Shown here: positions 3,553 to 48,930 of the stretch, piece after piece
Layout of the letters: each line of letters starts with the position of its first letter
Numbering within the stretch: the stretch's first letter is position 1
Notes under the pieces: generated by a model
What the model was told of the DNA's origin: nothing
The model's input: the letters and a program-made list of their open reading frames with translations, nothing else
Databases searched by the model: none
Program-made: the position numbers and the translations under genes
Assembly (NCBI GenBank): GCA_964655915.1
Contig: CAZZNV010000001.1
Location: 102,250 to 166,249, forward strand
Length of the DNA: 64,000 nt
Origin: an uncultured Azospirillaceae bacterium
GTDB lineage: Bacteria > Pseudomonadota > Alphaproteobacteria > RF32 > CAG-239
Direction: 5' to 3'

Positions 3553-5327
3553 GTAAAAATATTAAAACCAGACTTGCTTCTTGTTTGAGGGTGTTTAAGC
3601 CCTTTTTTGTAGGCAACCCTGCTATGAGGAGAGTACCATTGCGGAATTAGATAATGCTCATTCAACAAAACTCTATCCAAAGCCTTAACCGCAGCAACAT
3701 AATCGGATTTTTTATGAGCAGAAACCAACTTTTGGACTAAATCATCCACCACGGGGTTTTTTACGCCTAATAAATTATAGCTTCCTCTGACATCTGCGGC
3801 CTGAGAACCCCATATTTCTTTTTGCTCATTTCCGGGAAGATTACTGACGCCTATTGAAAGAATTGCCATTTCATAATCAAAATTGTCCATACGATTTTTA
3901 TAGACGTTAACCTCCAAGTTTCTGAAAACCATTTTAATTCCGATTTTTTTAAGATTTTCAATAAACGGGAGCATTACTCTGGTGAAGGCAGAGCCATTTG
4001 CCGCATTGCTCAAAACCTCTATTGTCAGGGGCTCACTGCTTTTTAAATGGGTCATAACACCATCTTTGAAATCATAACCCGCCTCGTTCAACAATTCTAC
4101 CGCTCGCCGTAAATTTTGTCTGGTTTGCAGATAATCAGCATGAACGGGGAACTCGGGTTCTCGGGTGAAAACCTCCGAAGGAAGATTGGCTTTATACTTG
4201 TTCAAAAGGCTCAATTCTCTACCTTGCGGCAAGCCTGTGGCTTCCATGCCCGTATTGGTAAAATGACTGTAAAGTCTTTTATATTGGTTATAAAACAACT
4301 TATCCGCCGCCCATTCGAAATTAAATGCCAAACCGATGGCCTCTCGCACTCGACGGTCTGAAAATTTGGGAAGCCTGCTGTTGAAACCGAAGAACTGCAA
4401 TGTTGCCGGTTGGTTATGCTCTAAATTCTCTTGAATTATCTCTCCTGATTTGACCAAATCATTATCATAGCCTGTTACCCAGATTTTGGCTATATACTCT
4501 TCCCTTACATCAATATTTCCGGCAAACAAAGCTTGCAAGGTGACTGTTGTATCCTGATAATAGTCGTATCGCACTTCGTCAAAATTGAAGAAACCTTTGC
4601 GCGAGGGTAAATCTTTTGCCCAATAATTCGGATTTCTGCGAAACACGAGATTCTTTCCAACCTCAAATCCCTCCAAAATATAAGGTCCGCTGCCTAAGGG
4701 AACTCGAAGCTCCGGCTTGGAAAAATCTCTTCCTTCCCAATCTTTGGCGGAATAAATTTTAAGTTGGGCCAAAATAAGCGGCAATTCCTTGTTACGCACT
4801 CCGGCCTTAAAATGAAAACGGACGTGATATTTATTCACTTTTTCAGCCCGATCCACATCTCCATAATAGACCTTATAAAAAGGGCTCCCCTTCTCTATCA
4901 AAGCATTGTAGCTGAACAAAACATCATCTGCGGTTACAGGTTCTCCATTGCTAAATCTGGCTTTTTTATTCAGGATAAATCCGACGTACGAATTATCCGG
5001 TGAAACTTCAAATTTTTCCGCCAGCAGAGGATAAACCGTTGTCGGATCGTCTATGGGGACAACTCCCAGACTATCCAAGCTCAATAAAGCGTGTTCGGGA
5101 GAGGCTATGCCCTTAAAAATATACGGATTAAAATTATCAAAACCGCCGTATGCAGGCATCACCACGCGACCGCCCTTGGGTGCGTTTGGATTCACATAGG
5201 AGAAATTATTAAACGAATCTTTGTACAAGGCCTCGCCATACAAAGCCAAAGACGGTACTATCTCAGCGTGCACCGCATGCACCATTCCCAGAAAAGCGAA
5301 ACAAAAAAAGCTAATTATCTTCAGCAA
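3534..5327 (-). CDS. yejA: Periplasmic solute-binding protein, family 5 (peptide/microcin type, YejA-like)
   Basis: 597 aa with a signal peptide (…MVHAVHA) and a family-5 SBP length and architecture. It is co-oriented with and overlaps the permease gene. Confidence 0.8.
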   Translation of the reverse strand: MLKIISFFCFAFLGMVHAVHAEIVPSLALYGEALYKDSFNNFSYVNPNAPKGGRVVMPAYGGFDNFNPYIFKGIASPEHALLSLDSLGVVPIDDPTTVYPLLAEKFEVSPDNSYVGFILNKKARFSNGEPVTADDVLFSYNALIEKGSPFYKVYYGDVDRAEKVNKYHVRFHFKAGVRNKELPLILAQLKIYSAKDWEGRDFSKPELRVPLGSGPYILEGFEVGKNLVFRRNPNYWAKDLPSRKGFFNFDEVRYDYYQDTTVTLQALFAGNIDVREEYIAKIWVTGYDNDLVKSGEIIQENLEHNQPATLQFFGFNSRLPKFSDRRVREAIGLAFNFEWAADKLFYNQYKRLYSHFTNTGMEATGLPQGRELSLLNKYKANLPSEVFTREPEFPVHADYLQTRQNLRRAVELLNEAGYDFKDGVMTHLKSSEPLTIEVLSNAANGSAFTRVMLPFIENLKKIGIKMVFRNLEVNVYKNRMDNFDYEMAILSIGVSNLPGNEQKEIWGSQAADVRGSYNLLGVKNPVVDDLVQKLVSAHKKSDYVAAVKALDRVLLNEHYLIPQWYSPHSRVAYKKGLKHPQTRSKSGFNIFTWWREI

Positions 5328-5339
5328 GGCATTTTCCGA

Positions 5340-6578
5340 TTAACGACTATATTTTTCTTCGTCCATCCACCCGCCAAACGGATATGCAAAGTTTTCATCT
5401 TCGTCAGATACCCGTGGCGATTCCTTAAAACCGTTCCACTCCTCTTTTAGATTGTTGAGCTGTTTTTGTGTTTGAGACATATCGACTTCCGGCATTGAAA
5501 CTTCCGGGTTTGTCAAAGATGTTTCCTCCGGCAGGGATATTTCAAAATGCGGCTCTTCCTTTTCTAAAACAGGCTCATTTTGCGGAACAGCATCAAAAAA
5601 CACTTCATTTTCCGTGTTCAGTTGCGGTTCAGGATCATCAACCGCGCCAAAACTACGCTCCAACGCGATGGAGAAAGGGTCTCTCTCTTTCGAAACCGGC
5701 TCTTCAATCTCAGGTTTCTTTTTGAACGGATTTATCTTGCTCATTAATGATTCGGGTGTCTTTTGTTCCCTATAAGCATCTATCGGTGCCGAGGTTTCTT
5801 GACGAACCGTAATCGGCGCAGATTGAGCCTCAACACCAAAACTTCTCGGACGAACAAAAGCATTGGTACTTTCCCGAACTTTTCTTACCTCATCAGACAC
5901 GGGAGCAAAGATTGAGAAAACTTTTCCCATTACGCCTGTTTCTATCATATTCAAAAAGATTTTCTCTCTGTCATATTTTTCTAAAAGTCCAACTACTGAT
6001 TGGTAGCGAGCACAAAATTCCATAATCGTTCCCGCTAAAACAACATCGTGGCAAGCTTTTTCATAAACACGCATCTGGAAATTTGCCTGCGCGTTATTCA
6101 CCTCTATAATCACCTTTCCAAACGTCCATTTTCCGCCATCGCGCACCTGTTGCCACAAGTGCTCAATTTGTTCTTTAGAGGCTATTTTGCAACAACGGAT
6201 AATCTCGGACAACAGTTCATTCAAATCCGCAATCAACAGATCAAAACGCCCCATCATAAATCCTTCTTTCACCTGTTGTTCCGTTTCGATAAGGACCCGA
6301 GCCAACAGGTCTGAATAGTCTTGGTTTTTCTTCATCTGAGAGAACAGTTTATGGAACAACCCCTCTGTCCGACGGTTTTGTAGATATTGGTTAACACCAC
6401 CAAACACAACCCACATTACAAACACCGGCAAAAACAAAACCAACAAAGCGCCGACAACGACCTCTGAACCCGCAGAAAAAAATGACTGTCCGCCAAGACT
6501 TTCCGCCACAAAACGAAAAGCGTAAATCAGCCAGACTAATGATGAAAATATTAAGGCGAAAAACGACACCGCAACCAC
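5340..6578 (-). CDS. Hypothetical membrane protein (2-3 N-terminal TM helices, acidic disordered C-terminal half)
   Basis: 412-aa ORF. Hydrophobic N-terminus followed by a Glu/Pro-rich low-complexity tail. No recognisable catalytic motif. Confidence 0.5.
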   Translation of the reverse strand: MVAVSFFALIFSSLVWLIYAFRFVAESLGGQSFFSAGSEVVVGALLVLFLPVFVMWVVFGGVNQYLQNRRTEGLFHKLFSQMKKNQDYSDLLARVLIETEQQVKEGFMMGRFDLLIADLNELLSEIIRCCKIASKEQIEHLWQQVRDGGKWTFGKVIIEVNNAQANFQMRVYEKACHDVVLAGTIMEFCARYQSVVGLLEKYDREKIFLNMIETGVMGKVFSIFAPVSDEVRKVRESTNAFVRPRSFGVEAQSAPITVRQETSAPIDAYREQKTPESLMSKINPFKKKPEIEEPVSKERDPFSIALERSFGAVDDPEPQLNTENEVFFDAVPQNEPVLEKEEPHFEISLPEETSLTNPEVSMPEVDMSQTQKQLNNLKEEWNGFKESPRVSDEDENFAYPFGGWMDEEKYSR

Positions 6579-6746
6579 AGTTAAAACTCCTGATTTTTGA
6601 TTTAGTTAATTTATTTTATTCAATTAAATGCTTTTTCCAATAAAAAATCCTACTTCTTGCACAAAAACTAAAATTAAGAGTCGAATTTTGCAAAAAAATA
6701 TGCTAAGTGTGGCGTAACATTCAGAGATTTATGAAAGAGGAAGTTT

Positions 6747-7724
6747 ATGAGTAATACATCCAGTCCCCTTGTTTTGGACTTTGAAAAGAATATTTTTGAA
6801 ATAGAATCCAAAATTGAAAGTTTAAAGCTTTTGGCACAGAATGAAGATGTTGATATTTCACAAGAAATCACACGCTTGCAACAAAAGCTCGAAAAGCAAA
6901 TGAAATCATCTTATTCCAATTTAACCCCGTGGCAGAAATCTCAAGTTGCCCGCCACCCTCAGCGCCCTCACTGCCTAGACTATGTTCGCGCACTGATTGA
7001 AGACTTTACTCCGTTATGCGGTGATCGTTTGTTTGGCGATGATGAGGCTATGATTGGCGGAATCGGAAGATTCAAAAATATTTCCGTTGTGGTTCTGGGA
7101 CAGGAAAAGGGACATGACATCGAGTCTCGCGTTAAATATAATTTCGGCATGGCCAAACCGGAAGGTTATCGCAAGGCGCAAAGATTAATGGATTTGGCAG
7201 ATAAATTTAATATGCCGGTTTTGGCTTTTGTTGACACCTCGGGCGCATTCCCCGGTGTTGAAGCTGAGGCTCGCGGACAGGCCGAAGCCATTGCATCATC
7301 CATACAAAAATGTTTGCAAATCAAAACTCCTATTATCTCTGTTGTTATCGGCGAAGGCGGCTCCGGCGGAGCTATCGCCATTGCCGCGGCAAACAGGGTT
7401 TTGATGCTCGAACATTCCATATATTCTGTCATTTCTCCGGAAGGGTGCGCTTCCATTTTGTGGCGCTCTGCCGATAAGGTTAAGGAGGCGACAGAGGCCT
7501 TAAAACTGACAGCTCAAGATTTGCGCCAGCTTGGAGTTATTGATGAAATTATCGCGGAACCTTTGGGCGGTGCACACCGAGATCAGTCGGTAGCTATTGA
7601 ACGTGTTGGAGATGCTATTCTCAAGCATTTAAAAGAGCTGCTTCCCTTGAGCGGTGATGAACTAAAAAAACGCCGCAATGAGAAATTTTTAAGGATGGGG
7701 CGTCGCTTTGCAGACTCTAAATAA
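6747..7724 (+). CDS. accA: Acetyl-CoA carboxylase carboxyltransferase subunit alpha
   Basis: 325 aa with canonical AccA sequence (…GDRLFGDDEAMIGGIGRF…PEGYRKAQRLMDLADKF…). An AGAGGAAG SD precedes the ATG. Confidence 0.95.
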   Translation: MSNTSSPLVLDFEKNIFEIESKIESLKLLAQNEDVDISQEITRLQQKLEKQMKSSYSNLTPWQKSQVARHPQRPHCLDYVRALIEDFTPLCGDRLFGDDEAMIGGIGRFKNISVVVLGQEKGHDIESRVKYNFGMAKPEGYRKAQRLMDLADKFNMPVLAFVDTSGAFPGVEAEARGQAEAIASSIQKCLQIKTPIISVVIGEGGSGGAIAIAAANRVLMLEHSIYSVISPEGCASILWRSADKVKEATEALKLTAQDLRQLGVIDEIIAEPLGGAHRDQSVAIERVGDAILKHLKELLPLSGDELKKRRNEKFLRMGRRFADSK

Positions 7725-8850
7725 ATTTTTCGCGGAGTATTCTTTTATTTTTGCGGTGACGGCGGTTGTTTTGTTGTTGCTGAACTTGGTTCTGTTGATT
7801 TTTCAGCGGAATCGTAAAGATTTGGCCGGGTTTAGCGACCTTTTGTTGAGAGGACAGGCTGAACTGGCCGGACGCCTAACCCAATTCGGCGAACACAGCT
7901 TACGCGAACAAAACCAAATTTCTCAGGCGATGAACGAGCAAAAAATGGCCGTGTTAAAGATTATGGACGAAAAGTTACTGGCTGTTACCAAGAGCGTGGG
8001 AGAGGGATTGCAAAAAAATACGGCAAAAACAACCGAAACACTGATGGATTTGCGAGAACGGCTGGCTAAAATTGATATTGCCCAGCAAAAAATCTCGTCT
8101 CTTTCGGAGCAGGTTGTGTCTTTGCAAGAAGTTCTGTCTAACAAGCAAGCTCGAGGCGCATTCGGCGAGATTCAACTTAACGATTTAGTTTCCTCTATTC
8201 TCCCTCCCAATGTTTATGAATTTCAAGCTGTTTTAACTAACGGCAAAAGAGCAGACTGCGTTTTAAAGCTACCGAATCCTCCGGGAACAATTGTGGTTGA
8301 CGCAAAGTTTCCGTTGGAAAGTTATCAGGCTTTGCGGCAAGCCTTTTCCGAAAGAGAGAGGGGAGATGCCGAGCGTTTTTTCAGGGCTTCTATGCTCAAA
8401 CACATAAAAGATATTTCTGAAAAATATATTATTTCAGGGGAGACCGCCGAATCGGCTCTGATGTTTTTGCCGAGCGAAGCCGTATATGCTGAGTTACATG
8501 CCAACTTCACCGATGTGGTTGAGGCTTCTTACCGTTCAAAAGTCTGGATTGTATCGCCAACAACCTTGATGGCAACCTTAAACACAATACGCGCCATATT
8601 GAAAGATGCGAAAATGCGTGAACAAGCCGGCGTCATCCAAAGAGAAGTCGGGGTTTTGACCGAAGATATCGGGCGCTTAGACAACCGCATCGAAAGTCTG
8701 GAAAAGCACTTCAAACAAGCCTGTGAAGACGTTGACGGCATAAAGATTTCATCGGGAAAAATCGGGAAAAGAATCCAACGTATTGAAAACATTGAGCTGG
8801 AGGAGGTTCCCTCTGCGGCTCATCTTCCCCAACTGGCAAATGATGATTAA
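7708..8850 (+). CDS. rmuC: DNA recombination protein RmuC
   Basis: 380 aa with an N-terminal TM, a coiled coil and an RmuC C-terminal domain. It overlaps accA by 17 nt, so the two are likely one operon. Confidence 0.8.
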   Translation: MQTLNKFFAEYSFIFAVTAVVLLLLNLVLLIFQRNRKDLAGFSDLLLRGQAELAGRLTQFGEHSLREQNQISQAMNEQKMAVLKIMDEKLLAVTKSVGEGLQKNTAKTTETLMDLRERLAKIDIAQQKISSLSEQVVSLQEVLSNKQARGAFGEIQLNDLVSSILPPNVYEFQAVLTNGKRADCVLKLPNPPGTIVVDAKFPLESYQALRQAFSERERGDAERFFRASMLKHIKDISEKYIISGETAESALMFLPSEAVYAELHANFTDVVEASYRSKVWIVSPTTLMATLNTIRAILKDAKMREQAGVIQREVGVLTEDIGRLDNRIESLEKHFKQACEDVDGIKISSGKIGKRIQRIENIELEEVPSAAHLPQLANDD

Positions 8851-8955
8851 AATTCCTTGGATAAGTAAATATTTAAATTTTGGCTTTTTTTTAAATTGTA
8901 ATATTGATAAATAAAGTAAAAAAAGATAACTTAGAACAAAAATGATAATAAAGAG

Positions 8956-9243
8956 GTGGTTAAAGTGACAAGATCAGAATTAATTGAACGAATTGCAAGT
9001 AAAAATCCGCATTTACTCTTGAAAGATGTTGAAAAGATTGTAGCGGTTATTTTTGATAAAATCGTGTCTTCGCTTGCAGCCGGAGACCGTGTTGAGTTTC
9101 GCGGTTTTGGAGCATTTTCTGTCAGGACAAGAACTCCTCGGGTGGCAAAAAACCCTCGCACGGGAGAGCCTGTTAAGGTTGATGAGCGAAAAATACCTCA
9201 TTTTAAAACTGGAAAACAATTGTTTGAACTGTTAAATAAGTAA
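8956..9243 (+). CDS. ihfB: Integration host factor subunit beta (HU/IHF family); probable true start GTG ~8965 (MTRSELIERIA…)
   Basis: N-terminus MTRSELIERIA… and the RGFGAFSVR…NPRTGEPV arm are IHF-beta-like. An AAGAGG SD lies upstream. Confidence 0.8.
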   Translation: MVKVTRSELIERIASKNPHLLLKDVEKIVAVIFDKIVSSLAAGDRVEFRGFGAFSVRTRTPRVAKNPRTGEPVKVDERKIPHFKTGKQLFELLNK

Positions 9244-9270
9244 TAACTTGTTTTTTGCAGGAGAGCATTT

Positions 9271-9696
9271 ATGGGCTTTATAAAATTGCTGATAGGTTTG
9301 CCGTTGATTGTTGTTATTACGGTGTTTGCCTTCGTTAATAACGATTTGGCTACTTTTAATCTATGGCCTTTTTATATTGAAATCACGGTTTCTCTCAGCG
9401 TGGCTATAATTTTCTTTATCTTAATCGGTTTTTTGTGGGGAAAGCTCTTTTCTTGGCTTTCGTACGCTCCTGTTAGAAAGGCTTTGCGTCAGCAGAAAAA
9501 ACAAAACAAAAAGTTGAACAAAGAACAGATGAAACTTGTTAAGGAAGTTGAGAACCTGCATGGGGATTTGGAAATTCTGAAGGAAAAAACACCTAAACCT
9601 CAAAAGCTGTCTTTGCAAGATAAAATTAAGAGATTTTTTAAAGTACAAACCGCTCAAGAAGATGACGCCGGTTATCACCCTGTTGCTAAAAATTAA
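9271..9696 (+). CDS. LapA-family (DUF1049) inner-membrane protein
   Basis: 141 aa with two N-terminal TM helices and a Lys-rich coiled C-terminus. The position directly after ihfB is conserved in alphaproteobacteria. Confidence 0.6.
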   Translation: MGFIKLLIGLPLIVVITVFAFVNNDLATFNLWPFYIEITVSLSVAIIFFILIGFLWGKLFSWLSYAPVRKALRQQKKQNKKLNKEQMKLVKEVENLHGDLEILKEKTPKPQKLSLQDKIKRFFKVQTAQEDDAGYHPVAKN

Positions 9697-9713
9697 ATTT
9701 ATAAGGAAAAAAC

Positions 9714-10595
9714 ATGAACTGGCTTTCTGACTTTGTTCGTCCGAAACTGAAAAAGATAACAACAAAAGAAATAGCGGACAATCTATGGACCAAATGCCCT
9801 GTCTGCGGTCAAATGCTATTTACAAAGGAACTGGAAAAAAACAACTTTGTTTGCTCCTCTTGTGATCACCATTTACGCATGCCTTTAAAAAAGCGTTTTG
9901 AGCTTTTGTTCGATAATGGCGAATATAAGAACATTACCCTTCCGAAGTTGCAGGAAGATCCTTTGAATTTTAAAGATTCTAAAAAATACAGTGAGCGTTT
10001 GCGTACCTACCGTAAAGCTACGGGACACGACGACGCTATACAGGTTGCTCAAGGGGAGATCGGCGGTATAAATTGCGTAATCGCAGCCTTGGACTTTTCT
10101 TTTATGGGGGGATCCATGGGCACAACTGTCGGAGAAGGAATTGTCAAAGCTGCAGAAATTGCTTCCAGAGGAAACTATCCGCTTATCACAATATCAGCTT
10201 CCGGCGGAGCGCGTATGCAGGAAGGAATTTTGTCCTTGATGCAAATGGCGCGCACAACAGTCGCCGTTAATATGGTTAAAGAAAAGGGACTCCCTTTTAT
10301 ATCTGTTCTGACAGATCCCACTACCGGCGGTGTTTCGGCCTCTTTTGCTATGCTCGGCGATATTCACATTGCCGAACAAGGGTGTGTTATCGGTTTTGCC
10401 GGCGCACGCGTTATTGAACAAACAATCCGAGAAAAGCTTCCTGAAGATTTCCAGAGAGCGGAATATCTTAAAGAACATGGAATGGTTGATATTGTTGTTC
10501 GGCGCTCCGAATTGAAGAACGAGTTGGTCAAGGTGTTGAGCATTCTAACCCACCGTAAACCGCAAACAAGCACTTTGTCTATTGAACAAAAATAG
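9714..10595 (+). CDS. accD: Acetyl-CoA carboxylase carboxyltransferase subunit beta
   Basis: 293 aa with the N-terminal Zn ribbon CPVCG…CSSCDHH and a carboxyltransferase core. An AAGGA SD is present. Apparent ihfB-lapA-accD operon. Confidence 0.95.
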   Translation: MNWLSDFVRPKLKKITTKEIADNLWTKCPVCGQMLFTKELEKNNFVCSSCDHHLRMPLKKRFELLFDNGEYKNITLPKLQEDPLNFKDSKKYSERLRTYRKATGHDDAIQVAQGEIGGINCVIAALDFSFMGGSMGTTVGEGIVKAAEIASRGNYPLITISASGGARMQEGILSLMQMARTTVAVNMVKEKGLPFISVLTDPTTGGVSASFAMLGDIHIAEQGCVIGFAGARVIEQTIREKLPEDFQRAEYLKEHGMVDIVVRRSELKNELVKVLSILTHRKPQTSTLSIEQK

Positions 10596-10596
10596 T

Positions 10597-10630
10597 AAAA
10601 AGCCGGAAATCAAATTCCGGCTTTTTACTA
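10597..10630. terminator. Bidirectional rho-independent terminator between convergent accD and the Sel1 gene
   Basis: AAAAAGCCGGAA-ATCAA-ATTCCGGCTTTTT is a perfect hairpin flanked by an A-run and a T-run. Confidence 0.7.
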
Positions 10631-11758
10631 CTTGGTGTTATCAATATAACCTCGGGTATCTCGTCCGAAAGTTTGGCGAATATATGATGTCAACTCTGAA
10701 GGTGTTTCTTTGAAATGCTCCGCATCAGACTGGGCTTGCAAAAGCTCTTCAATCTTCAGTTTTTCTCCTAACTGATTACGTTTTACCGCGGCATCTTTTG
10801 AACCTCTGACCGCTGCTAAGTTTAGCATGATATGCGCTGTGTAGGGATCTTTACCATATTTTTCACCTCGGGTCAAAATCTCCCCCAAAGACAACATGGC
10901 GCCCACATGCCCCTGAGCGGCAGCCAATTTAAGATTTTTTACGGCATTTCCGTAGTTTTGCGGCAGTCCTAAACCATTTAAATACATCAGCGCCAATATA
11001 TATTGTGCCTCGTCATATTTCGCATTGGCGGCAGCTCTGATATTCTTTGCCGCTTTATCATAATCTAAAGGCTGGAGTTTCCCTCTATATTGGGCATATC
11101 CGACCATAAACTGAGCCGTCGGATTTTTAGCGGCGGCCGCCTGTTTAAACATTTTCATGGCTAATTCGGCGTCTGTTTTAACCCCATTACCGCTAATCAG
11201 AATAAATCCCAAATTTACAGCGGCTTCAGCGTTGCCCTGCACTGCAGATTTTTCAAATAAAACGGCGGCTTTAGCGGTATTTCGCTTTATTCCTATGCCA
11301 TTATAATATAAACTTCCTAAATTATTTAATCCGACAGGGTCATTTTGCATGGCTGCTTTAGCATAATATTCAAAAGCTTTGTCATGATCGGGGGTGACAT
11401 CTTTATTACCATACAAATATAAATAGCCCAAGGCTAATTGCGCATTAACATTTCCTTTGTCGGCCAATCTGATTGCCTGCTCCATTTGGGAAAGAGATTT
11501 TCCATCTTCAGAAACCGGTATATCTTCTTTTTTTATACCAAATTTGAAATTCAAAAAAGAAAACAACCCGCCATCATCTTCTTTTTTATCTTTTTTTATC
11601 GTCTTACTCTCCGGTTTGGCGGCAGCGGTGCCTTCAAACAGAGAAACATAAGCCCCATCATCGGCAGCCCATGCTGGAAAACCTAGAAAAAGAATCATTA
11701 ACACACAAATATTCTTCATACCCAGTCCCATCATTAGATTAAAACGTAGGTATATCAT
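10628..11758 (-). CDS. Secreted Sel1-repeat (TPR-like) protein; probable start at MKNICVLMILFLGFPAWA signal peptide
   Basis: Multiple ~36-aa Sel1 repeats (…LGYLYLYGNKDVTPDHDKAFEYYAKAA…LGSLYYNGIGIKRNTAKAAVLFEKSA…) and an N-terminal signal peptide. Confidence 0.8.
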   Translation of the reverse strand: MIYLRFNLMMGLGMKNICVLMILFLGFPAWAADDGAYVSLFEGTAAAKPESKTIKKDKKEDDGGLFSFLNFKFGIKKEDIPVSEDGKSLSQMEQAIRLADKGNVNAQLALGYLYLYGNKDVTPDHDKAFEYYAKAAMQNDPVGLNNLGSLYYNGIGIKRNTAKAAVLFEKSAVQGNAEAAVNLGFILISGNGVKTDAELAMKMFKQAAAAKNPTAQFMVGYAQYRGKLQPLDYDKAAKNIRAAANAKYDEAQYILALMYLNGLGLPQNYGNAVKNLKLAAAQGHVGAMLSLGEILTRGEKYGKDPYTAHIMLNLAAVRGSKDAAVKRNQLGEKLKIEELLQAQSDAEHFKETPSELTSYIRQTFGRDTRGYIDNTK

Positions 11759-29641: not shown

Positions 29642-29905
29642 ATGGCCAATCATAAATCGGCAAAAAATAGAATTATAAGAAACGACAAACGCAACGTTAT
29701 CAACGCTGCTCGCAGAAATCGTGTTCGCACTTTTGTAAAAAAGGTTGATGCTTTGATTAGTGCCGGCAACAAAGAAGCTGCCGCAGAGGCTTTCAAAGTT
29801 GCAGAATCTGAAATGATGTCTGCTGCCCGTAAAGGTATTTTCGCATTGAACAAAGCTTCTCGCACTGTTTCTCGCTTGTCAAAAAAGATTAAAGCTTTAG
29901 CCTAA
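29642..29905 (+). CDS. rpsT: 30S ribosomal protein S20
   Basis: 87 aa, MANHKSAKNRIIRNDKRNVINAARRNRVRTF…. Confidence 0.95.
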   Translation: MANHKSAKNRIIRNDKRNVINAARRNRVRTFVKKVDALISAGNKEAAAEAFKVAESEMMSAARKGIFALNKASRTVSRLSKKIKALA

Positions 29906-30137
29906 AAAACGGCTTAAAGTTTCTTTTTTTCAAAACACAAATTCTTTCGCCCTTTTTATTTATAAGGGTGTTTGGGTTTGTGTTTTTTTGTTGGGAAAAC
30001 AAGAGAATCTAAGCGACTCTGTAAAAAAGCTTTGTCAAGAAATTTAATTACAATGTTCTTGAAATGTTCTGTTGTATTTTTGTTTTTGTACCGTTACTAT
30101 CCGAATCACTTTCTGAGGGGTTGCCTAAAATTTAACG

Positions 30138-36503: not shown

Positions 36504-36538
36504 AATAAGGGACTTTGTTAACGTAAAATTGACACATT

Positions 36539-37012
36539 TTGCTTATTGTTATAGCATATTTTTCGGTCTTTCACAAGCAAAAGGAAGCTTTTATGGAAAC
36601 ACAGTATTACACTTTGATTGAAAAACAAGACTTTTACGAGATTATCGAAAATAAGTATGGTGAGCTGGCAATCTTTATTGATGCACGCGACGGGCACCCT
36701 GAAAATCCCGTATTGGAGTTTGACAGTAAAAAAACAGCCTTGCTTAAAAGAGATGAACGTTTGGCTGTTCGCTTGGACGAGATTCATCCTGATTCTGTCG
36801 CTCCGCTGGCGGAAGCCGAGTTTGTTATGATTGTGGAACTTAAAGGCAAGATGGTTGAGCGTGTTTATGCCTGTCCGGTTGAAAATGTGGAAGAAATTGT
36901 TTTTGAAGGACGCCAGACTCGCGCCGATGAATTGGTTAAAGCGAAAACAAAAGATGATTTACTCAAAAACTTTGGCGCTGTTAAATCTTGGGTTGGCGGA
37001 AGCTCTAAATAA
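36539..37012 (+). CDS. Hypothetical protein (probable start METQYYTL ~36593, ~140 aa), first gene of the EIIA-HPr operon
   Basis: The ORF ends 8 nt before the EIIA gene. It has no P-loop, so it is not an HprK. Confidence 0.5.
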   Translation: MLIVIAYFSVFHKQKEAFMETQYYTLIEKQDFYEIIENKYGELAIFIDARDGHPENPVLEFDSKKTALLKRDERLAVRLDEIHPDSVAPLAEAEFVMIVELKGKMVERVYACPVENVEEIVFEGRQTRADELVKAKTKDDLLKNFGAVKSWVGGSSK

Positions 37013-37020
37013 AATAGGAT

Positions 37021-37425
37021 GTGAACATGATTGGTTTGGTTTTGGTTACGCATGGAAATTTGGCAAATGAGTTTATATCTGCCATGCAGCATGTTGTCGG
37101 CAAGCAAGAACAAATTGCCGCCGTGTGCATTGGGCCGGAAGATGATATGGAAATGCGTCGTTCTGAGATAATGAAAAAGGTTGAGGAAGTCAACAGCGGA
37201 AACGGTGTTGTTGTTCTAACGGATATGTTCGGCGGAACACCTTCCAATTTGGCAATTTCCTTGATGGATCACGCTCCGGTGGAGATTATCGCCGGCGTAA
37301 ATTTGCCAATGTTAATTAAAATTGCCTCTTTGCGCAAAGAGCACGACCTGAAACAAACGGTTGAAGGAGCACAAGAGGCCGGAAAGAAATATATTACGGT
37401 TGCATCGAAGTTGTTGGGAGTTTAG
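37021..37425 (+). CDS. PTS EIIA component, mannose/fructose family (regulatory PTS of alphaproteobacteria)
   Basis: 134 aa with an N-terminal GLVLVTHG (phospho-His) EIIA-Man fold. Confidence 0.85.
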   Translation: MNMIGLVLVTHGNLANEFISAMQHVVGKQEQIAAVCIGPEDDMEMRRSEIMKKVEEVNSGNGVVVLTDMFGGTPSNLAISLMDHAPVEIIAGVNLPMLIKIASLRKEHDLKQTVEGAQEAGKKYITVASKLLGV

Positions 37426-37430
37426 GCGTA

Positions 37431-37703
37431 ATGAGTGAATTTAGTAAGGATTTGGAAATTCAGAATCGCAAAGGTCTGCATGCTCGTGCTGCAGCTGCTT
37501 TTGTTAAAACTCTGGAACCCTTTGATGCTGATGTTGAGGTTGAAAGAATCGGACAAAGTGTAAGCGGTAGTTCTATCATGGGATTGATGATGCTGGCTGC
37601 AGCCAAAGGAACAACCATTCATGTTAAGGCTTCCGGAAAACAAGCTGAGCAGGCTTTAGCCGCTTTAGAAACGCTAATTAACAACAAATTCGGTGAAGAT
37701 TAA
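37431..37703 (+). CDS. ptsH: Phosphocarrier protein HPr/NPr
   Basis: 90 aa with the His-15 region QNRKGLHARAAAAFV and a conserved Ser region. Confidence 0.85.
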   Translation: MSEFSKDLEIQNRKGLHARAAAAFVKTLEPFDADVEVERIGQSVSGSSIMGLMMLAAAKGTTIHVKASGKQAEQALAALETLINNKFGED

Positions 37704-37708
37704 TCCTC

Positions 37709-38629
37709 ATGAAAGGAAAAGCGCCCCGAAACAAAACCATTGAACTGACAGCAACAGAGACACGACGTTATGTTTCGGAAGCTGTTAGGCTGGGGCGAAA
37801 GGTTGACTTATCTGAAGTATTAAACAAAGTCATTTGCCAAGACAGCTTTAAAGCCATGGAATATCTCCCTGACGGCTGCGTTGATTTGATGATTGCCGAC
37901 CCGCCTTATAATCTAACAAAAAATTTTGGAAAATCCGTTTTTAAGGAGATGGATCTTCAATCTTATAAAGAATGGTTGGATAGTTGGCTTTCCAAGACCG
38001 TGCGTCTGTTAAAAGACAATGCCTCTGTTTATATTTGCTCTGACTGGAAAACCTCTATTGCCATTCCTGAGATTGCCGGACGATATTTTTTACTGCAAAA
38101 CCGTATCTCTTGGGAAAGGGAAAAAGGAAGAGGCGCTCAAAATAACTGGAAAAACTGTTTGGAAGATATTTGGTTTTTTACAAAGGGCAAGGACTACACT
38201 TTTAATTTAGACGCCGTTAAAATTCAAAGACCTGTTTTGGCTCCTTATCGTGATGAATGCGGCGCGCCTAAAGATTGGAAACAAAGCGGTAAACAAAAAT
38301 TTCGTTTAACACACCCTTCCAATGTATGGACGGATATTTCCGTGCCTTTTTGGTCAATGCCCGAAAACACGCCGCACCCGACACAAAAGCCCGAAAAACT
38401 TATTGCTAAATTGATTTTGGCTTCCAGCAACGAAAACGATGTTGTGTTTGACCCCTTTTTGGGCTCCGGAACCACCGCTGTTACGGCTAAAAAACTTATG
38501 CGACGATTTATTGGTATAGAAAGAGAAAAAGAATATGTTGCTTTAGCTCTTAAACGATTGTATCTCGCTGATACGGATAAGGAGATTCAAGGTTTCTCCG
38601 ACGGCGTTTTCAAAACCCGTAATAATTAA
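37709..38629 (+). CDS. Beta-class N6-adenine (N6/N4) DNA methyltransferase, CcrM/M.HinfI-like but lacking the CcrM C-terminal domain; no restriction partner
   Basis: 306 aa with motif IV DLMIADPPYNL near the N-terminus and motif I VFDPFLGSGTT near the C-terminus. The …HPTQKPEKLIAKLI… and …FIGIEREKEY… blocks closely resemble CcrM. It starts 5 nt after the HPr stop. Confidence 0.85.
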   Translation: MKGKAPRNKTIELTATETRRYVSEAVRLGRKVDLSEVLNKVICQDSFKAMEYLPDGCVDLMIADPPYNLTKNFGKSVFKEMDLQSYKEWLDSWLSKTVRLLKDNASVYICSDWKTSIAIPEIAGRYFLLQNRISWEREKGRGAQNNWKNCLEDIWFFTKGKDYTFNLDAVKIQRPVLAPYRDECGAPKDWKQSGKQKFRLTHPSNVWTDISVPFWSMPENTPHPTQKPEKLIAKLILASSNENDVVFDPFLGSGTTAVTAKKLMRRFIGIEREKEYVALALKRLYLADTDKEIQGFSDGVFKTRNN

Positions 38630-38765
38630 TCTTAGACTGTAACATTGTCTAGGTGCTATTGTCTTTCTTTTTTTTCAAATTAAATTATTCATCGAACTGA
38701 TTATTGAACGTTATTCTAATGAGAAATTCTACCGTTTTTATAACCATTGATTAAGGAGAAAAAAC

Positions 38766-38933
38766 ATGACTTGCAATGATATGAGAGACTCTTATTCTAA
38801 AATGTCAGCTTCTGACACATCAAAGGAAAATAAAGAAATGAACTCAAGCAACAGCAAATCTTCTCACTCAAGCAGTAGTTCCGCTTCTTCAACCCCTAAA
38901 AGCGGTGGCTGCGGTTGCTCCGGAAACTACTAA
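38766..38933 (+). CDS. Small 55-aa Ser-rich peptide ending in GGCGCSGNY (MTCNDMRDSYSKMSASDTSKENKEMNSSNSKSSHSSSSSASSTPKSGGCGCSGNY)
   Basis: Own translation. A consensus SD (AAGGAG) lies 7 nt upstream of the ATG, and a strong terminator follows. Not in the ORF track because it is <60 aa. Confidence 0.4.
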   Translation: MTCNDMRDSYSKMSASDTSKENKEMNSSNSKSSHSSSSSASSTPKSGGCGCSGNY

Positions 38934-39670: not shown

Positions 39671-40477
39671 ATGGATTTTTTTAAACTAACTACTTGGAAT
39701 GTAAACTCCGTTCGTATCCGCTTGGAATTACTGAAAAAGCTTGTTGCAGAAGTTTCTCCGGACATTGTCTGCTTGCAGGAAGTGAAAGCTAAAGAAGATG
39801 ACTTTCCTTTTGAGGCCGTGAAAGAGCTCGGATTTCCATATATTGCCCTTTACGGACAGCCTTCTTACAACGGGGTGGCTATCTTATCTAAATTTCTGCT
39901 TAAAGATATTAAACCGCATGATTGGGTCGGCAAACACGATGCCAGACATATCTCAGCAAAGATTTTTGATGATATTGAAATTAATGATATGTATATTCCC
40001 GCCGGAGGGGATATTCCCGATCCGATAGAGAATCTTTCTTTTGCTCACAAATTATGTTTTATGGACGATGTTGCCGAACATTTTGAGCAACACAAAGAGG
40101 CTTTGGTGAAAAAGAAAATGTTGCTTTGCGGCGATTTTAATGTAGCTCCTTCCGAAAATGATGTTTGGAATCATAAGCAGCTACTTAAAATTGTTTCACA
40201 CACTCCCATTGAGATCAGCCGCCTAAATCGCCTGTTTTCTTCATTAGATTTTGTAGATGCGGTTCGTAAAATATATCCGGAACCGGAGAAGATGTTTTCT
40301 TGGTGGAGCTATCGCAACCCCAACTGGGCAACAAACAACAAAGGACGGCGGTTGGATCATATTTGGGTGACGCCACCTTTGGAATCACGCATTTTAGATG
40401 TGCAGATATTGAAAGAAGCTCGCCTTTGGGAGCGCCCTTCCGACCACGTTCCCGTGACGGCAACGATTAAACTTTAA
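39671..40477 (+). CDS. xthA: Exodeoxyribonuclease III (AP endonuclease)
   Basis: 268 aa, …TWNVNSVRIR…VCLQEVKA…, EEP fold, Xth length. Confidence 0.9.
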   Translation: MDFFKLTTWNVNSVRIRLELLKKLVAEVSPDIVCLQEVKAKEDDFPFEAVKELGFPYIALYGQPSYNGVAILSKFLLKDIKPHDWVGKHDARHISAKIFDDIEINDMYIPAGGDIPDPIENLSFAHKLCFMDDVAEHFEQHKEALVKKKMLLCGDFNVAPSENDVWNHKQLLKIVSHTPIEISRLNRLFSSLDFVDAVRKIYPEPEKMFSWWSYRNPNWATNNKGRRLDHIWVTPPLESRILDVQILKEARLWERPSDHVPVTATIKL

Positions 40478-41087
40478 GCTTGTAGCCTCCTTCAAGAGTT
40501 ATGATAAGCTGAGCCGATGAGTCATCGTGCTCAACTTTTTGTCGCAGTCGATAAATGTGCGTTTCTATTGTGTGGGTTGTTGCATCCGGAGCATAACCCC
40601 AAACTTCTTGCAACAACTCATTTTTTGAAACAACTCTTTCGTTTGCTTTAAAAAGATATTTGATAACGGCAACTTCTTTTTCCGTCAGTTTTATCACTTC
40701 ATTATTTCGGTGATTGATAATATCTTTCTTGATTGGACGAACCTCATAATCGTTAAAAGACAAATAACCGTCCGTACTGTTTTCAAAAAGATTTAAGCAG
40801 GCATGCAACTCATCTAAAAATGTCGTTAATTTCATGGGTTTGAAAATTAGATGGTTTGCAGAGCAACTCGAAAGATCGGTCACAGATGTAAATAAGAAAG
40901 AAGGAATATTCTCATATTTTTTTTGCCATGCTTTTAGAACAGACAAATCATCATCAACCATTAAAATATCCGGCACAACCCCGTCTTCCTGATAGAAAAC
41001 CTCAAACTCTTTGGCGTATTGCGCTATCTGGCTAACCAAATCAGATTTAAAATCATCATTGGTTGAGTAAAACAAGATGTTCGGCAT
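40467..41087 (-). CDS. Response regulator, OmpR/PhoB family (short receiver + winged-helix DNA-binding domain), orphan
   Basis: 206 aa with receiver residues (DD, D~47, T/S, K in FKP) and a C-terminal wHTH …THTIETHIYRLRQK…. Confidence 0.7.
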   Translation of the reverse strand: MPNILFYSTNDDFKSDLVSQIAQYAKEFEVFYQEDGVVPDILMVDDDLSVLKAWQKKYENIPSFLFTSVTDLSSCSANHLIFKPMKLTTFLDELHACLNLFENSTDGYLSFNDYEVRPIKKDIINHRNNEVIKLTEKEVAVIKYLFKANERVVSKNELLQEVWGYAPDATTHTIETHIYRLRQKVEHDDSSAQLIITLEGGYKLKV

Positions 41088-47231: not shown

Positions 47232-48620
47232 ATGAAATATACGACTCGATTTTTCTTGATGAAAAAGCTTAATTACGATATAATGATTCTATATTCTTTA
47301 TGGGAGGTATTTATGGCTGAATATAAGAAAAAATTTATCTTGAATTTTGAGTCCGGATTAAGTGAACAACATAAAAAATGGGCGAAAGAAGCCGTAAAGG
47401 AATTTATCGCTTTGTTTCCCGAATATGAGGACTGTTTTGAAATCAGTCAGGAAAAAAACAGATTTACAAAAGAACAAGCAGAGGAATTTCTAAACGAAAT
47501 AAGAAGAAAAAATCCGAACGTAACTGATGCTCAGCTTTCTAGCCTTATTGAAAAACAGCCTGACGGTTCATACCTGTATAAATGGGGCGCAGATTATATT
47601 TTTCAAAAATCTTCCACCGACGAAAAACTTGATTTGTTAAAATGGCCCACAGTAGATGAAACACTTCATCCTTCCGGTCAAACCGCCAAAGACCCTCTAA
47701 ATATTTACATATCAAACAGAGAAACCACCTTTGCTTACGGAAGAACATCTGCTGTGGGAAATGTTTGTATTTCCGCTCCGGAAGCTGATAAAATAATGCC
47801 GGAACACAGAGAACGTCATTTTAAGGATATTATTCTTCATGAGATGGGACACCATTTTGGTGCCGTAAACTCTAACAGCCCTAACGCCATTGATGATTTA
47901 GGCTGGCATTCGACAGACCCTGATTGCTTAATGTACCACAAGGCCTACACAAAAGAAGCCTTCCTTAATCGGCATAGTTCTCCTGAAAAACCTTTATTTT
48001 CTCAAGAATGCATGAATAATATGCGCCATAATATGGAGCAGCATCTCGGTTTTACGCAAAAACAACAAAGACCTGCAGACTTGACCATTAGCGATACGGA
48101 AGAAAATCTACCACCGGTTTCTCCTAAACAGGTACCTATTTACAAGAAACACTGGCGGGAATTTGCTCAATCCGTTGCAGAAAAAATTGGCGCAGAATAT
48201 GAAGAAAATACCGAGGTCAACCATTTTAGCGCACAACTCAAAAACAGAGATAATTCTTTTGTTCAAATTGCCGCAACTTCCGAAACGAATGTTTCCCTCA
48301 GTGCAAAAGATAAAAACGGAGAAAAAGCTATTCCTCCGCTGAAAGTATTTAAAGAACTTGCGGCTAAAGCTGCTTCGGAAAACAAGCCTATTTCTTTTGG
48401 CTCTATCCAAGATGCTGAATTTAAAGCACGCCTTTTGATTGCCTGCATGGAAAGCAATCCGCCCGTTAAAATGCAAAACGCTCCGGAAATCAACGAAGAA
48501 TTCTTGGCCGGTCTTGATAAAAACAGCGCTCAAAAGCTTAGAAGCTTACAAAACAAAGAACAAACGGTAGGACAGCCGTTGATTCTTAATCAGCTACCGA
48601 AAAAGCAACGAGATTCTTAA
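47232..48620 (+). CDS. Metzincin-like zinc metalloprotease candidate (HEMGHHFG…H…CLMY), no signal peptide; probable start MAEYKKKF ~47313
   Basis: HExxHxxG zinc-binding motif followed by a Met-turn-like CLMY (…ILHEMGHHFGAVNSNSPNAIDDLGWHSTDPDCLMYH…). A GGGAGG SD precedes ATG ~47313. Confidence 0.55.
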   Translation: MKYTTRFFLMKKLNYDIMILYSLWEVFMAEYKKKFILNFESGLSEQHKKWAKEAVKEFIALFPEYEDCFEISQEKNRFTKEQAEEFLNEIRRKNPNVTDAQLSSLIEKQPDGSYLYKWGADYIFQKSSTDEKLDLLKWPTVDETLHPSGQTAKDPLNIYISNRETTFAYGRTSAVGNVCISAPEADKIMPEHRERHFKDIILHEMGHHFGAVNSNSPNAIDDLGWHSTDPDCLMYHKAYTKEAFLNRHSSPEKPLFSQECMNNMRHNMEQHLGFTQKQQRPADLTISDTEENLPPVSPKQVPIYKKHWREFAQSVAEKIGAEYEENTEVNHFSAQLKNRDNSFVQIAATSETNVSLSAKDKNGEKAIPPLKVFKELAAKAASENKPISFGSIQDAEFKARLLIACMESNPPVKMQNAPEINEEFLAGLDKNSAQKLRSLQNKEQTVGQPLILNQLPKKQRDS

Positions 48621-48930
48621 CTTCTAACTTTGGATTCGTTTTGGATTCGCGCCGAATTTGTTGAAATTCGGCGTTTATTTTAAGGACGAATCCATATTTT
48701 TTTATTTTTCGCAAAGTGAATCTGGACTTGATTTTGGCGCGAATCGGCAGATTGATTCAACAGAATCGGTAATAAAATATTAACTTTTATCTTTTTAGAA
48801 TCCTCTCATAACAGCAATTCTGCAGGTTGTTGTTTGACAAAGCTTTGTTTCTTGATGAAAAATTATTGAGGTTGAAAAGGCATTATTTTTACCGGTTGAG
48901 TTGTCGCAGCCGATGAAAGTAGGATTCGTC
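48612..48930. promoter_or_regulatory. Dense cluster of ~10 GANTC sites (four as GGATTCG/CGAATCC) in a gene-free convergent intergenic region
   Basis: GANTC sites at ~48612, 48633, 48644, 48688, 48718, 48741, 48754, 48763, 48798 and 48923. A TTGACA -35-like hexamer sits at ~48832. Confidence 0.4.
48649..48681 (+). terminator. Rho-independent terminator after the metzincin-like gene
   Basis: CGCCGAATTT-GTTGA-AAATTCGGCG is a 10-bp perfect stem followed by TTTATTTT. Confidence 0.6.

What the first reader, a model, noticed from the sequence alone, without database searches (positions are those of the whole stretch)
36539..38629. Orphan CcrM-like methyltransferase apparently co-transcribed with the regulatory PTS (EIIA-Man, HPr); HprK absent
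Four co-oriented genes are separated by 8, 5 and 5 nt: a 140-aa hypothetical, EIIA-Man, HPr and the methyltransferase. The 306-aa beta-class methyltransferase (DPPY…FDPFLGSGTT) shares the catalytic blocks of CcrM and M.HinfI, both GANTC-specific. It lacks CcrM's C-terminal domain and has a 40-aa N-terminal extension. No restriction enzyme is nearby. In Rhizobiales the conserved cluster is hprK-EIIA-HPr. Here the kinase gene is replaced by an unrelated 140-aa ORF without a P-loop, and a DNA methyltransferase is appended instead. This hints at nutritional PTS signalling coupled to DNA methylation in this lineage, or at a second non-CcrM methyltransferase.
Basis: partly seen in the sequence, partly recalled or inferred. 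Interest (0 to 1): 0.6.

Follow-up and report, generated by a model that had tools for sequence, protein, structure and literature searches.

The report
Orphan DNA methylase in PTS operon
A group of uncultured gut Alphaproteobacteria carries a tightly packed four-gene operon: an unknown small protein, two sugar-signalling (PTS) phosphocarrier proteins, and a lone DNA adenine methylase that is a former restriction-modification methylase, not the cell-cycle methylase CcrM.

Summary
ORF139 (36593-37012), EIIA-Man (37027-37425), HPr (37431-37703) and a 306-aa beta-class N6-adenine methyltransferase (37709-38629) are co-oriented, with gaps of 8-14, 5 and 5 nt and no terminator between them.

The module is conserved. 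All 25 related MAG species keep the four genes, and the HPr-to-methylase junction is -4 to +13 nt. Sixty-one metagenome contigs extended far enough beyond HPr to judge. All kept EIIA, 60 kept HPr, and 42 kept the methylase. The methylase is ancestral in the clade and was lost at least three times.

The methylase is not a CcrM orthologue. It lacks CcrM's C-terminal domain and its GANTC-contact residues, and it scores far below the CcrM model cut-off. It belongs to a cross-phylum family (57-61% identity). In 15 of 55 loci from other phyla, a HincII-like endonuclease gene follows it. It is best read as a domesticated Type II methylase. Its target site is unknown.

ORF139 is not HprK. It has no P-loop and no Pfam match, and its confident predicted fold has no PDB match. 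Its domain is fused to TIR and STAND proteins elsewhere.

Genome-wide absence of hprK or ccrM could not be tested. Biochemical coupling between PTS and methylation is unproven.

The parts
36518..36557 (+). Operon promoter: TTAAC-N6-TTGACA (-35), a 17-nt spacer, then TAGCAT (-10)
   Evidence: The promoter scan scored it 10 of 12. The TTAAC-N6-TTGACA...TAnnAT block is conserved upstream of ORF139 in about 20 of 27 relatives. Its resemblance to a CtrA box is unproven: TTAA-N7-TTRAC occurs in the window at chance frequency.
36593..37012 (+). ORF139: conserved 139-aa protein of unknown function, at the position hprK holds in other Alphaproteobacteria
   Evidence: It has 808 homologues at about 80% identity and no Pfam match. 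It has no Walker A motif. The AF2 model has pLDDT 87, with 96-98 over residues 10-100. No fold match was found in PDB or BFVD. Residues 8-102 form a domain also found alone, in tandem, and fused to TIR or STAND-TPR proteins.
37027..37425 (+). EIIA of the mannose family (PtsM/ManX-like), 132 aa; an alternative GTG start lies at 37021
   Evidence: Pfam EIIA-man, 1.7e-31. The THG phosphorylation-site histidine is invariant in 27 sequences.
37431..37703 (+). HPr/NPr phosphocarrier protein, 90 aa
   Evidence: Pfam PTS-HPr, 1.4e-28. The GLHARAA histidine and the serine that aligns with the HprK target (S before IMG) are invariant in 27 sequences.
37709..38629 (+). Orphan beta-class N6-adenine DNA methyltransferase, 306 aa (DPPY ... 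FDPFLGSGTT); the last gene of the operon
   Evidence: Pfam N6_N4_Mtase, 9.8e-47. PADLOC Type II MTase models score 228 and 203 bits, against 115 for the orphan CcrM-like model. The best PDB hits are M.BceJIV at 1e-31 and M.MboIIA at 3e-29; CcrM scores 3e-24 in two pieces. Full-length homologues at 57-61% identity occur in many phyla.
38631..38676 (+). Weak hairpin followed by a T-run after the methylase stop codon; a possible operon terminator
   Evidence: The fold energy is -9.2 kcal/mol with z -0.56, so it is not significant on its own. The terminator scan did not call it.

Best explanation
This is a conserved operon, translationally coupled in its deepest-branching members, in a clade of uncultured, low-GC (0.40) gut and rumen Alphaproteobacteria. 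It is transcribed from a conserved sigma-70-type promoter upstream of ORF139.

The stable core is ORF139-EIIA(Man)-HPr. This is a regulatory PTS branch in which a small protein of unknown function and unmatched fold sits where hprK sits in Rhizobiales.

The fourth gene is a solitary beta-class N6-adenine DNA methyltransferase. It is not CcrM. It comes from a cross-phylum family of Type II methylases, some of which are still paired with a HincII-like endonuclease. The clade's ancestor captured it once at the 3' end of the PTS operon. It was then inherited vertically and lost at least three times.

Shown: the gene content, the conservation, the junction geometry, the family relationships and the loss pattern.

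Inferred: the methylase is made whenever the PTS operon is transcribed, so its level follows that promoter. It methylates an unknown, probably palindromic adenine-containing site, and not GANTC by CcrM's mechanism. Nothing shows that HPr or EIIA acts on the methylase.
For: Geometry:
- Gaps are 8-14, 5 and 5 nt with no terminator between the genes.
- In 26 loci the HPr-to-methylase gap is -4 to +13 nt. The four deepest-branching loci have ATGA overlaps at all three junctions.
- The promoter is conserved.

Conservation:
- 25 of 25 species found with the methylase carry all four genes, although the flanking genes differ.
- Of 61 contigs found with ORF139 that extend at least 900 nt beyond ORF139, 42 carry the methylase.
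- On a core-gene NJ tree, Fitch parsimony gives an ancestral presence and 3 losses.

Not CcrM:
- The CcrM model scores 118 bits against a cut-off of 830; the YhdJ-like model PRK11524 scores higher at 157 bits.
- Arg44/Pro45, Met122/Pro123, Arg129 and Tyr93/His94 of CcrM (PMC6787082) have no counterparts in the sequence.

Restriction-modification ancestry:
- 55 loci in Ignavibacteria, Acidobacteria, Cyanobacteria, Planctomycetes, CPR and Firmicutes hold homologues at 57-61% identity.
- In 15 of them a conserved ORF of about 221 aa follows about 85 nt downstream. Its only Pfam and PDB similarity is to HincII, over the DVK catalytic motif.
- R-M-linked and solitary members interleave on the tree, while the alphaproteobacterial copies are monophyletic.
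- No endonuclease homologue occurs in any alphaproteobacterial locus.
Against: - No transcript data exist, so co-transcription is inferred.
- The similarity to the HincII endonuclease is below Pfam's cut-off (20.4 against 23.7 bits; PDB E = 0.05).
- The trees are NJ, midpoint-rooted and without support values.
- In the M- clades the methylase could have moved elsewhere in the genome rather than been lost.
- Strict retention in most lineages, with overlapping stop and start codons, could reflect a real functional tie to the PTS proteins that sequence analysis cannot see.
- In Brucella the gene co-transcribed after ptsO is sahH, a methyl-cycle enzyme. That parallel hints the link to methylation may not be accidental.
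Confidence: 0.6

Rival explanations
1. The methylase is this clade's functional replacement for CcrM. It would be a GANTC-specific, cell-cycle or nutrient-timed orphan methylase whose expression is wired to the regulatory PTS.
For: - It is an orphan, ancestral, vertically inherited beta-class adenine methylase in an alphaproteobacterial clade.
- Its promoter has a TTAA-N7-TTGA element overlapping the -35 hexamer, like CtrA-activated promoters.
- Dense GANTC clusters exist: 10 sites in 343 bp at 48581-48923, and clusters upstream of dnaA in relatives.
- Pooled intergenic GANTC has O/E 1.41 against 0.84 in coding sequence. This resembles the pattern reported for CcrM-bearing orders (PMC3973325).
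Against: - CcrM's GANTC-contact residues and C-terminal domain are absent.
- Homologues at 60% identity in other phyla show no intergenic GANTC bias.
- The pooled GANTC enrichment did not replicate in 80 independent metagenome loci, where GANTC ranked 11th and 15th of 16 motifs. It is therefore driven by a few homologous regions.
- All nine intergenic sites of the window's cluster are GAWTC, which suggests a protein-binding repeat.
- The methylase was lost in at least three lineages.
- The CtrA-like motif occurs at chance frequency in the window.
Confidence: 0.15
2. The methylase serves a defence-related role rather than a regulatory one. It could be a recently orphaned or still active Type II modification enzyme with its endonuclease elsewhere, or a protective methylase against invading restriction-modification elements. 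On this reading its place in the PTS operon is incidental.
For: - The best PADLOC matches are Type II MTase models.
- Family members pair with a HincII-like endonuclease gene in 15 of 55 loci.
- Its patchy loss is typical of accessory genes.
Against: - No endonuclease homologue occurs in any of the roughly 100 alphaproteobacterial loci.
- It has been inherited vertically at one locus across a clade whose copies have diverged to 53-62% identity.
- Start and stop codons overlap with HPr in the deepest branches.
- No candidate GTNNAC-type site is clearly avoided in the clade.
Confidence: 0.15
3. ORF139 is a highly diverged HprK, or the adjacency of the four genes is a chance or annotation artefact.
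For: ORF139 is about the length of the truncated alphaproteobacterial HprK and sits at the same position (PMC2937029).
Against: - It has no Walker A motif.
- No Pfam, NCBIfam, PADLOC or PHROG match was found.
- The beta-rich predicted fold has no PDB match.
- The weak PabI hit (E 0.65) was not supported by the fold search.
- The adjacency recurs in all relatives.
Confidence: 0.03

Closest known systems
CcrM (Caulobacter crescentus; PDB 6PBD) and M.HinfI
   Same: Both are beta-class N6-adenine methyltransferases with DPPY before FxGxG. Like CcrM, this one is an orphan in an alphaproteobacterium and is inherited vertically.
   Different: Identity is only about 29-31%. The CcrM model scores 118 bits against a cut-off of 830. 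The C-terminal DNA-binding domain of about 80 aa is missing. Loop-2B and Loop-45 differ in length and lack Arg44, Pro45, Met122, Pro123 and Arg129. The gene is lost in some sublineages.
M.BceJIV (Burkholderia cenocepacia; PDB 8URK; target GTWWAC) and E. coli YhdJ (PRK11524)
   Same: These are the best PDB and NCBIfam matches. Loop lengths after DPPY and in loop-45 are similar. M.BceJIV also has an N-terminal extension, was crystallised as a delta-29 construct, and is an orphan with regulatory roles (PMC11380664).
   Different: The similarity is distant (113 bits). By the alignment, none of the M.BceJIV base-contact residues (Arg180, Leu182, Phe183, Trp188, Arg203, His205, Gln207) is conserved. 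The target site is therefore probably different.
Type II restriction-modification systems with a HincII-like endonuclease
   Same: Homologues at 57-61% identity are followed by a conserved PD-(D/E)XK-type ORF of about 221 aa. It aligns with HincII over the catalytic DVK segment and the downstream PN-containing segment.
   Different: No endonuclease gene occurs in the window or in any alphaproteobacterial locus. Here the methylase is embedded in a PTS operon.
bvrR-bvrS-hprK-ptsM-ptsO-sahH operon of Brucella melitensis, and the chvI-chvG-hprK-manX-ptsH cluster of Rhizobiales
   Same: EIIA(Man)-like and HPr/NPr genes are adjacent and co-transcribed, and a gene tied to SAM-dependent methylation follows ptsO (sahH there, a methylase here). 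The phosphorylatable His and Ser of HPr are conserved.
   Different: hprK is replaced by an unrelated 139-aa gene. No two-component genes lie upstream; the neighbours are recF or an ABC transporter. The trailing gene is a DNA methyltransferase, not SAH hydrolase.

Membership tests
Beta-class N6/N4 DNA methyltransferases (Pfam PF01555) | Motif IV (D/S)PPY lies N-terminal to the SAM-binding motif I FxGxG, and the Pfam gathering score is passed | tested here: met
   DPPY lies near residue 64 and FDPFLGSGTT near residue 247. The score is 160.2 bits against a cut-off of 26.7.
CcrM family | Passes the curated CcrM equivalog model | tested here: not met
   NF050803 scores 118.1 bits in two stretches against a cut-off of 830.
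CcrM family | C-terminal domain of about 80 aa, specific to the family and binding the non-target strand | tested here: not met
   The protein ends about 20 residues after the catalytic core. The alignment to 6PBD stops at chain residue 258 of 366. PMC3973325 and PMC6787082 describe this domain as family-specific.
CcrM family | Conserved GANTC-contact residues (Arg44, Pro45, Leu38/Leu42, Tyr93/His94, Met122/Pro123, Arg129) | tested here: not met
   The residues are taken from PMC6787082. The corresponding loops here read NLTKNFGKSVFKEMD, CSDWKT and EREKGRGAQNNWKNC, with no equivalents.
CcrM family | Methylates the adenine of GANTC | not testable with these tools
   Only indirect motif statistics were possible, and they gave conflicting results.
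Type II restriction-modification system | A cognate endonuclease gene adjacent to the methylase | tested here: not met
   None occurs in the window or in about 100 clade loci. One is present in 15 of 55 homologous loci from other phyla.
Alphaproteobacterial hprK-EIIA(Man)-HPr cluster | Adjacent EIIA-Man and HPr/NPr genes with a conserved phospho-His and the HprK-target Ser | tested here: met
   Pfam matches were found. The His of EIIA and the His and Ser of HPr are invariant in 27 sequences.
Alphaproteobacterial hprK-EIIA(Man)-HPr cluster | hprK immediately upstream of the EIIA gene | tested here: not met
   The upstream gene is ORF139 in all relatives. Whether hprK lies elsewhere in the genome could not be tested.
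HprK/P family (as a candidate identity for ORF139) | Walker A P-loop and the Hpr_kinase_C signature | tested here: not met
   No G-x4-GK[ST] motif. No Pfam or NCBIfam hit. The predicted fold has no PDB match.

The most novel reading that the evidence does not exclude
ORF139 is a new kind of partner or regulator of the HPr/EIIA(Man) branch, taking the place of HprK. It uses a fold without a PDB match that it shares with TIR and STAND immune proteins. The operon's methylase then gives these gut Alphaproteobacteria nutrient-coupled epigenetic control, possibly substituting for CcrM.
Probability: 0.12. Interest if true: 0.75.

Novelty: new variant of a known kind. Interest (0 to 1): 0.4.

Why it matters
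Regulatory PTS branches (EI-Ntr, NPr, EIIA) link nutrient status to the cell cycle and to virulence in Alphaproteobacteria, and orphan adenine methylases such as CcrM are their best-known epigenetic regulators. An operon that hard-wires synthesis of a solitary methylase to HPr and EIIA across a whole uncultured gut clade gives a concrete, testable case of possible coupling. It also shows a Type II methylase being domesticated into a housekeeping operon. Separately, ORF139 defines an unannotated domain family whose predicted fold has no structural match. It sits exactly where HprK is expected and is fused to TIR and STAND proteins elsewhere. If it binds HPr or EIIA, it would be a new PTS regulator.

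Tried and rejected
- **ORF139 as a PabI-like endonuclease.** The phmmer hit had E 0.65. The confident AF2 model matched neither PabI nor anything else in PDB, so this was rejected.
- **First AF2 run.** A shallow alignment gave pLDDT 42 and the model was discarded. A 72-sequence alignment gave pLDDT 87.
- **Profile search for ORF139 relatives.** The search returned almost only orthologues and no names.
- **Target site from structural homologues.** Neither CcrM's nor M.BceJIV's contact residues are conserved.
- **Target site from motif avoidance.** GTGCAC is the most depleted palindrome in the endonuclease-bearing loci (0.33). It is also depleted elsewhere, so the result is inconclusive.
- **GANTC intergenic enrichment as a sign of CcrM.** It was strong in pooled loci (z 4.4) but failed to replicate in independent loci. 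I downgraded it to a matter of local clusters.
- **CtrA-box reading of the promoter.** The motif occurs at chance frequency in the window.
- **Rfam.** No family reached its gathering score across the window.
- **Plasmid search.** It gave only a solitary Prevotella homologue at 52% identity and YhdJ-like genes at about 34%.
- **Literature.** No report of a PTS-methylase operon was found.
Full report
**What is in the sequence.** The + strand between 36.5 and 38.7 kb carries four co-oriented ORFs.
- ORF139 runs from 36593 to 37012. Its real start is the ATG at 36593, because every homologue begins METQYYT.
- HPr runs from 37431 to 37703.
- A 306-aa methyltransferase runs from 37709 to 38629.

The gaps are 8-14, 5 and 5 nt. 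Pfam confirms EIIA-man (1.7e-31), PTS-HPr (1.4e-28) and N6_N4_Mtase (9.8e-47), and finds nothing for ORF139. A sigma-70-like promoter (TTGACA-17-TAGCAT, 36529-36557) precedes ORF139, and no terminator-like site separates the genes. After the methylase there is only a weak hairpin with a T-run. The neighbourhood is dnaA-dnaN-recF and a divergently oriented MsbA-like ABC transporter upstream, and lolA-xthA downstream.

**Conservation of the four-gene unit.** The source is an uncultured low-GC (0.40) alphaproteobacterium. The methylase and ORF139 each have hundreds of homologues at 73-86% identity in gut metagenomes and MAGs labelled 'Alphaproteobacteria bacterium'.

A scan of species-representative genomes with the methylase returned 25 such species at 62-77% identity. 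All 25 have ORF139-EIIA-HPr-methylase in that order, even where recF/dnaN or lolA/xthA have moved or are absent. Across 26 loci the HPr-to-methylase gap is -4 to +13 nt. In the four deepest-branching loci all three junctions are 4-nt ATGA overlaps, the signature of translational coupling. The promoter block TTAAC-N6-TTGACA...TAnnAT is conserved in about 20 of 27 upstream regions.

That scan was biased towards presence of the methylase, so I scanned metagenome contigs with ORF139 instead. Sixty-one contigs extended at least 900 nt beyond ORF139. All kept EIIA and 60 kept HPr, but only 42 kept the methylase. In the other 19, unrelated genes follow HPr, among them a long membrane-protein ORF that looks like ftsH (not scanned), an inverted recF and an acetyltransferase-like ORF. 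On an NJ tree of concatenated ORF139+EIIA+HPr, the methylase-less loci form two clades plus one singleton. Fitch parsimony gives an ancestral presence and three losses. The stable core is therefore the three-gene unit. The methylase is an ancient, mostly retained but dispensable fourth gene.

**What the methylase is.** It is a beta-class N6-adenine enzyme, with DPPY before FDPFLGSGTT. It is not a CcrM orthologue, for these reasons.
- NCBIfam's CcrM equivalog scores 118 bits against a cut-off of 830. The YhdJ-like PRK11524 model scores higher at 157 bits.
- PADLOC's best models are Type II restriction-modification methylases (228 and 203 bits). The CcrM-like orphan model scores 115 bits in two pieces.
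- In the PDB, M.BceJIV (8URK/9C3U; 1e-31) and M.MboIIA (3e-29) outrank CcrM (3e-24, two stretches).
- Identity to Caulobacter CcrM is 29-31%, no higher than for homologues from other phyla.
- Horton et al. 2019 (PMC6787082) list the residues that read GANTC: Arg44 and Pro45 in Loop-2B, Tyr93/His94, and Met122/Pro123/Arg129 in Loop-45. The corresponding loops here differ in length and sequence, and the family-specific C-terminal domain is absent.
- By the alignment, M.BceJIV's GTWWAC-contact residues (PMC11380664) are not conserved either.

The target site therefore cannot be read from solved structures.

**Where the methylase came from.** The genome scan also returned 55 full-length homologues at 57-61% identity. 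They cover the N-terminal extension too, which is therefore a family trait. They come from Ignavibacteria, Acidobacteria, Cyanobacteria, Planctomycetes, Chloroflexi, CPR and Cohnella, and none sits beside PTS genes.

In 15 of these loci a conserved ORF of about 221 aa follows the methylase about 85 nt downstream on the same strand. Its only Pfam similarity is to restriction endonuclease HincII (E 3.6e-4, 20.4 bits, below the 23.7 cut-off). A profile of 11 members finds HincII as the top three PDB hits (E 0.05). The alignment covers HincII's catalytic D-V-K and the following PN-containing segment.

On an NJ tree, R-M-linked and solitary members interleave, whereas all alphaproteobacterial copies form one clade. 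No homologue of the endonuclease occurs in the window or in any clade locus. The most economical reading is a single capture of a Type II methylase, followed by vertical inheritance as an orphan. A GTNNAC-type site is a lead from the HincII link, not a result. Motif-avoidance statistics were inconclusive.

**ORF139 and the 'missing HprK'.** Dozot et al. 2010 (PMC2937029) document the canonical alphaproteobacterial order chvI/bvrR-chvG/bvrS-hprK-ptsM-ptsO, with truncated HprK proteins. They also show by RT-PCR that ptsO is co-transcribed with the following gene, sahH.

Here ORF139 occupies the hprK position.
- It has no Walker A motif.
- It matches nothing in Pfam, NCBIfam, PADLOC or PHROGs.
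- A weak phmmer hit to the PabI endonuclease (E 0.65) was not borne out.

An exhaustive HMMER search showed that residues 8-102 form a domain of about 95 aa. The domain also occurs as stand-alone proteins of about 100 aa, as tandem pairs, and C-terminal to TIR domains or inside STAND-TPR proteins. With a 72-sequence alignment, AlphaFold gave a confident beta-rich model (pLDDT 87 overall, 96-98 across the domain). The model has no match in the PDB (best E 0.25, TM 0.23) or among viral structures.

ORF139 is thus an uncharacterised domain family, unrelated to HprK. In HPr, the phospho-histidine and the serine that aligns with the HprK target are invariant in 27 sequences. This is compatible with an hprK elsewhere but does not prove one. 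Whether hprK or a canonical ccrM exists elsewhere in these genomes could not be tested, because only the 64-kb window and flanks of up to 10 kb were accessible.

**GANTC statistics.** The window and 26 related loci were pooled (about 470 kb). In that pool GANTC was the most over-represented of 112 palindromic motifs in intergenic DNA (160 observed, 113 expected, z 4.4). It was under-represented in coding DNA (O/E 0.84). This resembles the pattern Gonzalez et al. 2014 report for CcrM-bearing orders (PMC3973325). It was absent from other phyla that carry the methylase family.

The loci are homologous, however, so the counts are not independent. In 80 independent metagenome loci the enrichment vanished (GANTC ranked 11th and 15th of 16). 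What remains solid is local clustering. Ten GANTC sites lie in 343 bp at 48581-48923, and the nine intergenic ones are all GAWTC, mostly GATTCG. Clusters also lie upstream of dnaA in relatives. This is suggestive of GANTC-based regulation by some enzyme, but it does not assign GANTC to this methylase.

**Verdict.** The CcrM/HinfI/GANTC framing is not supported. 'PTS-coupled methylation' remains an operon-level inference, weakened by three losses of the methylase. The sahH parallel and the translational coupling keep it alive.

I rate it a new variant of known kinds: an orphan Type II-derived methylase and a regulatory PTS cluster. It has one unknown component, ORF139, and is of moderate interest overall.

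Noticed in passing
window 48581-48923: Ten GANTC sites lie in 343 bp. Nine of them fall in the roughly 400-bp gap between the 3' ends of an unknown 462-aa ORF and polA. All nine are GAWTC, mostly within GATTCG/CGAATC repeats. About one site would be expected. This could be a protein-binding array, an origin-related element or a methylation-sensitive element. The only Rfam hit is weak (RAGATH-21, 25 bits against a 70-bit gathering score).
   Followed up: partly
window 29804-30103; L004 2330-3182; L010 3499-4574; L012 1955-2643; L018 3654-3949: Clusters of GANTC sites lie in the rpsT-dnaA upstream region of the window and of several relatives. This recalls methylation-regulated dnaA promoters in Caulobacter.
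   Followed up: partly
window and L004-L029 (about 470 kb pooled): GATC is strongly avoided in both coding and intergenic DNA (O/E 0.32-0.35). CTAG (0.45) and GGCC (0.60) are also avoided. This suggests long exposure to GATC-cutting restriction systems.
   Followed up: no
window 38766-38933 (+); L122, just after HPr: A conserved small ORF of 55 aa, Ser-rich and ending in GGCGCSGNY, lies between the methylase and lolA. A similar 62-aa ORF ending in SGGCGCGK directly follows HPr in a methylase-less relative. Its function is unknown.
   Followed up: no
L030, L031, L052 and other Ignavibacteria loci, around 6400-11600: In 8-14 of the loci from other phyla, led by L030 (the Ignavibacteria-type set), the homologous solitary methylase sits between a large hybrid histidine kinase with PAS, receiver and HPt-like regions (domains read by eye, not scanned) and a convergent sixA phosphohistidine phosphatase gene (TIGR00249, 83.9 bits against a cut-off of 74.5). 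This is a second case of this methylase family next to phospho-histidine signalling genes.
   Followed up: partly
L034, L037, L046, L058, L072 (Acidobacteria), just downstream of the methylase: An xthA (exonuclease III) homologue follows the methylase homologue in several Pyrinomonadaceae loci. In the window, xthA lies about 1 kb downstream of the methylase.
   Followed up: no
L086-L089, around 5001-5584 of L086: A stand-alone ORF139-type domain protein (103 aa) overlaps by 4 nt a 91-aa ORF that has no Pfam match. The pair lies between gatB and a phage-type integrase. It looks like a two-gene cassette, possibly toxin-antitoxin-like or defence-related.
   Followed up: no
window 40467-41087 (-): An OmpR-family winged-helix regulator (Trans_reg_C) has an N-terminal half too degenerate to be recognised by Pfam as a receiver domain. 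It is syntenic with lolA-xthA-porin in most relatives.
   Followed up: no
L170 (Prevotella sp. oral taxon 299 F0039, NC_022111) 3995-5525: A cultured Prevotella carries a solitary homologue at 52% identity (317 aa), followed by an HD-motif protein of 161 aa. This strain could be used to determine the family's methylation motif experimentally.
   Followed up: no
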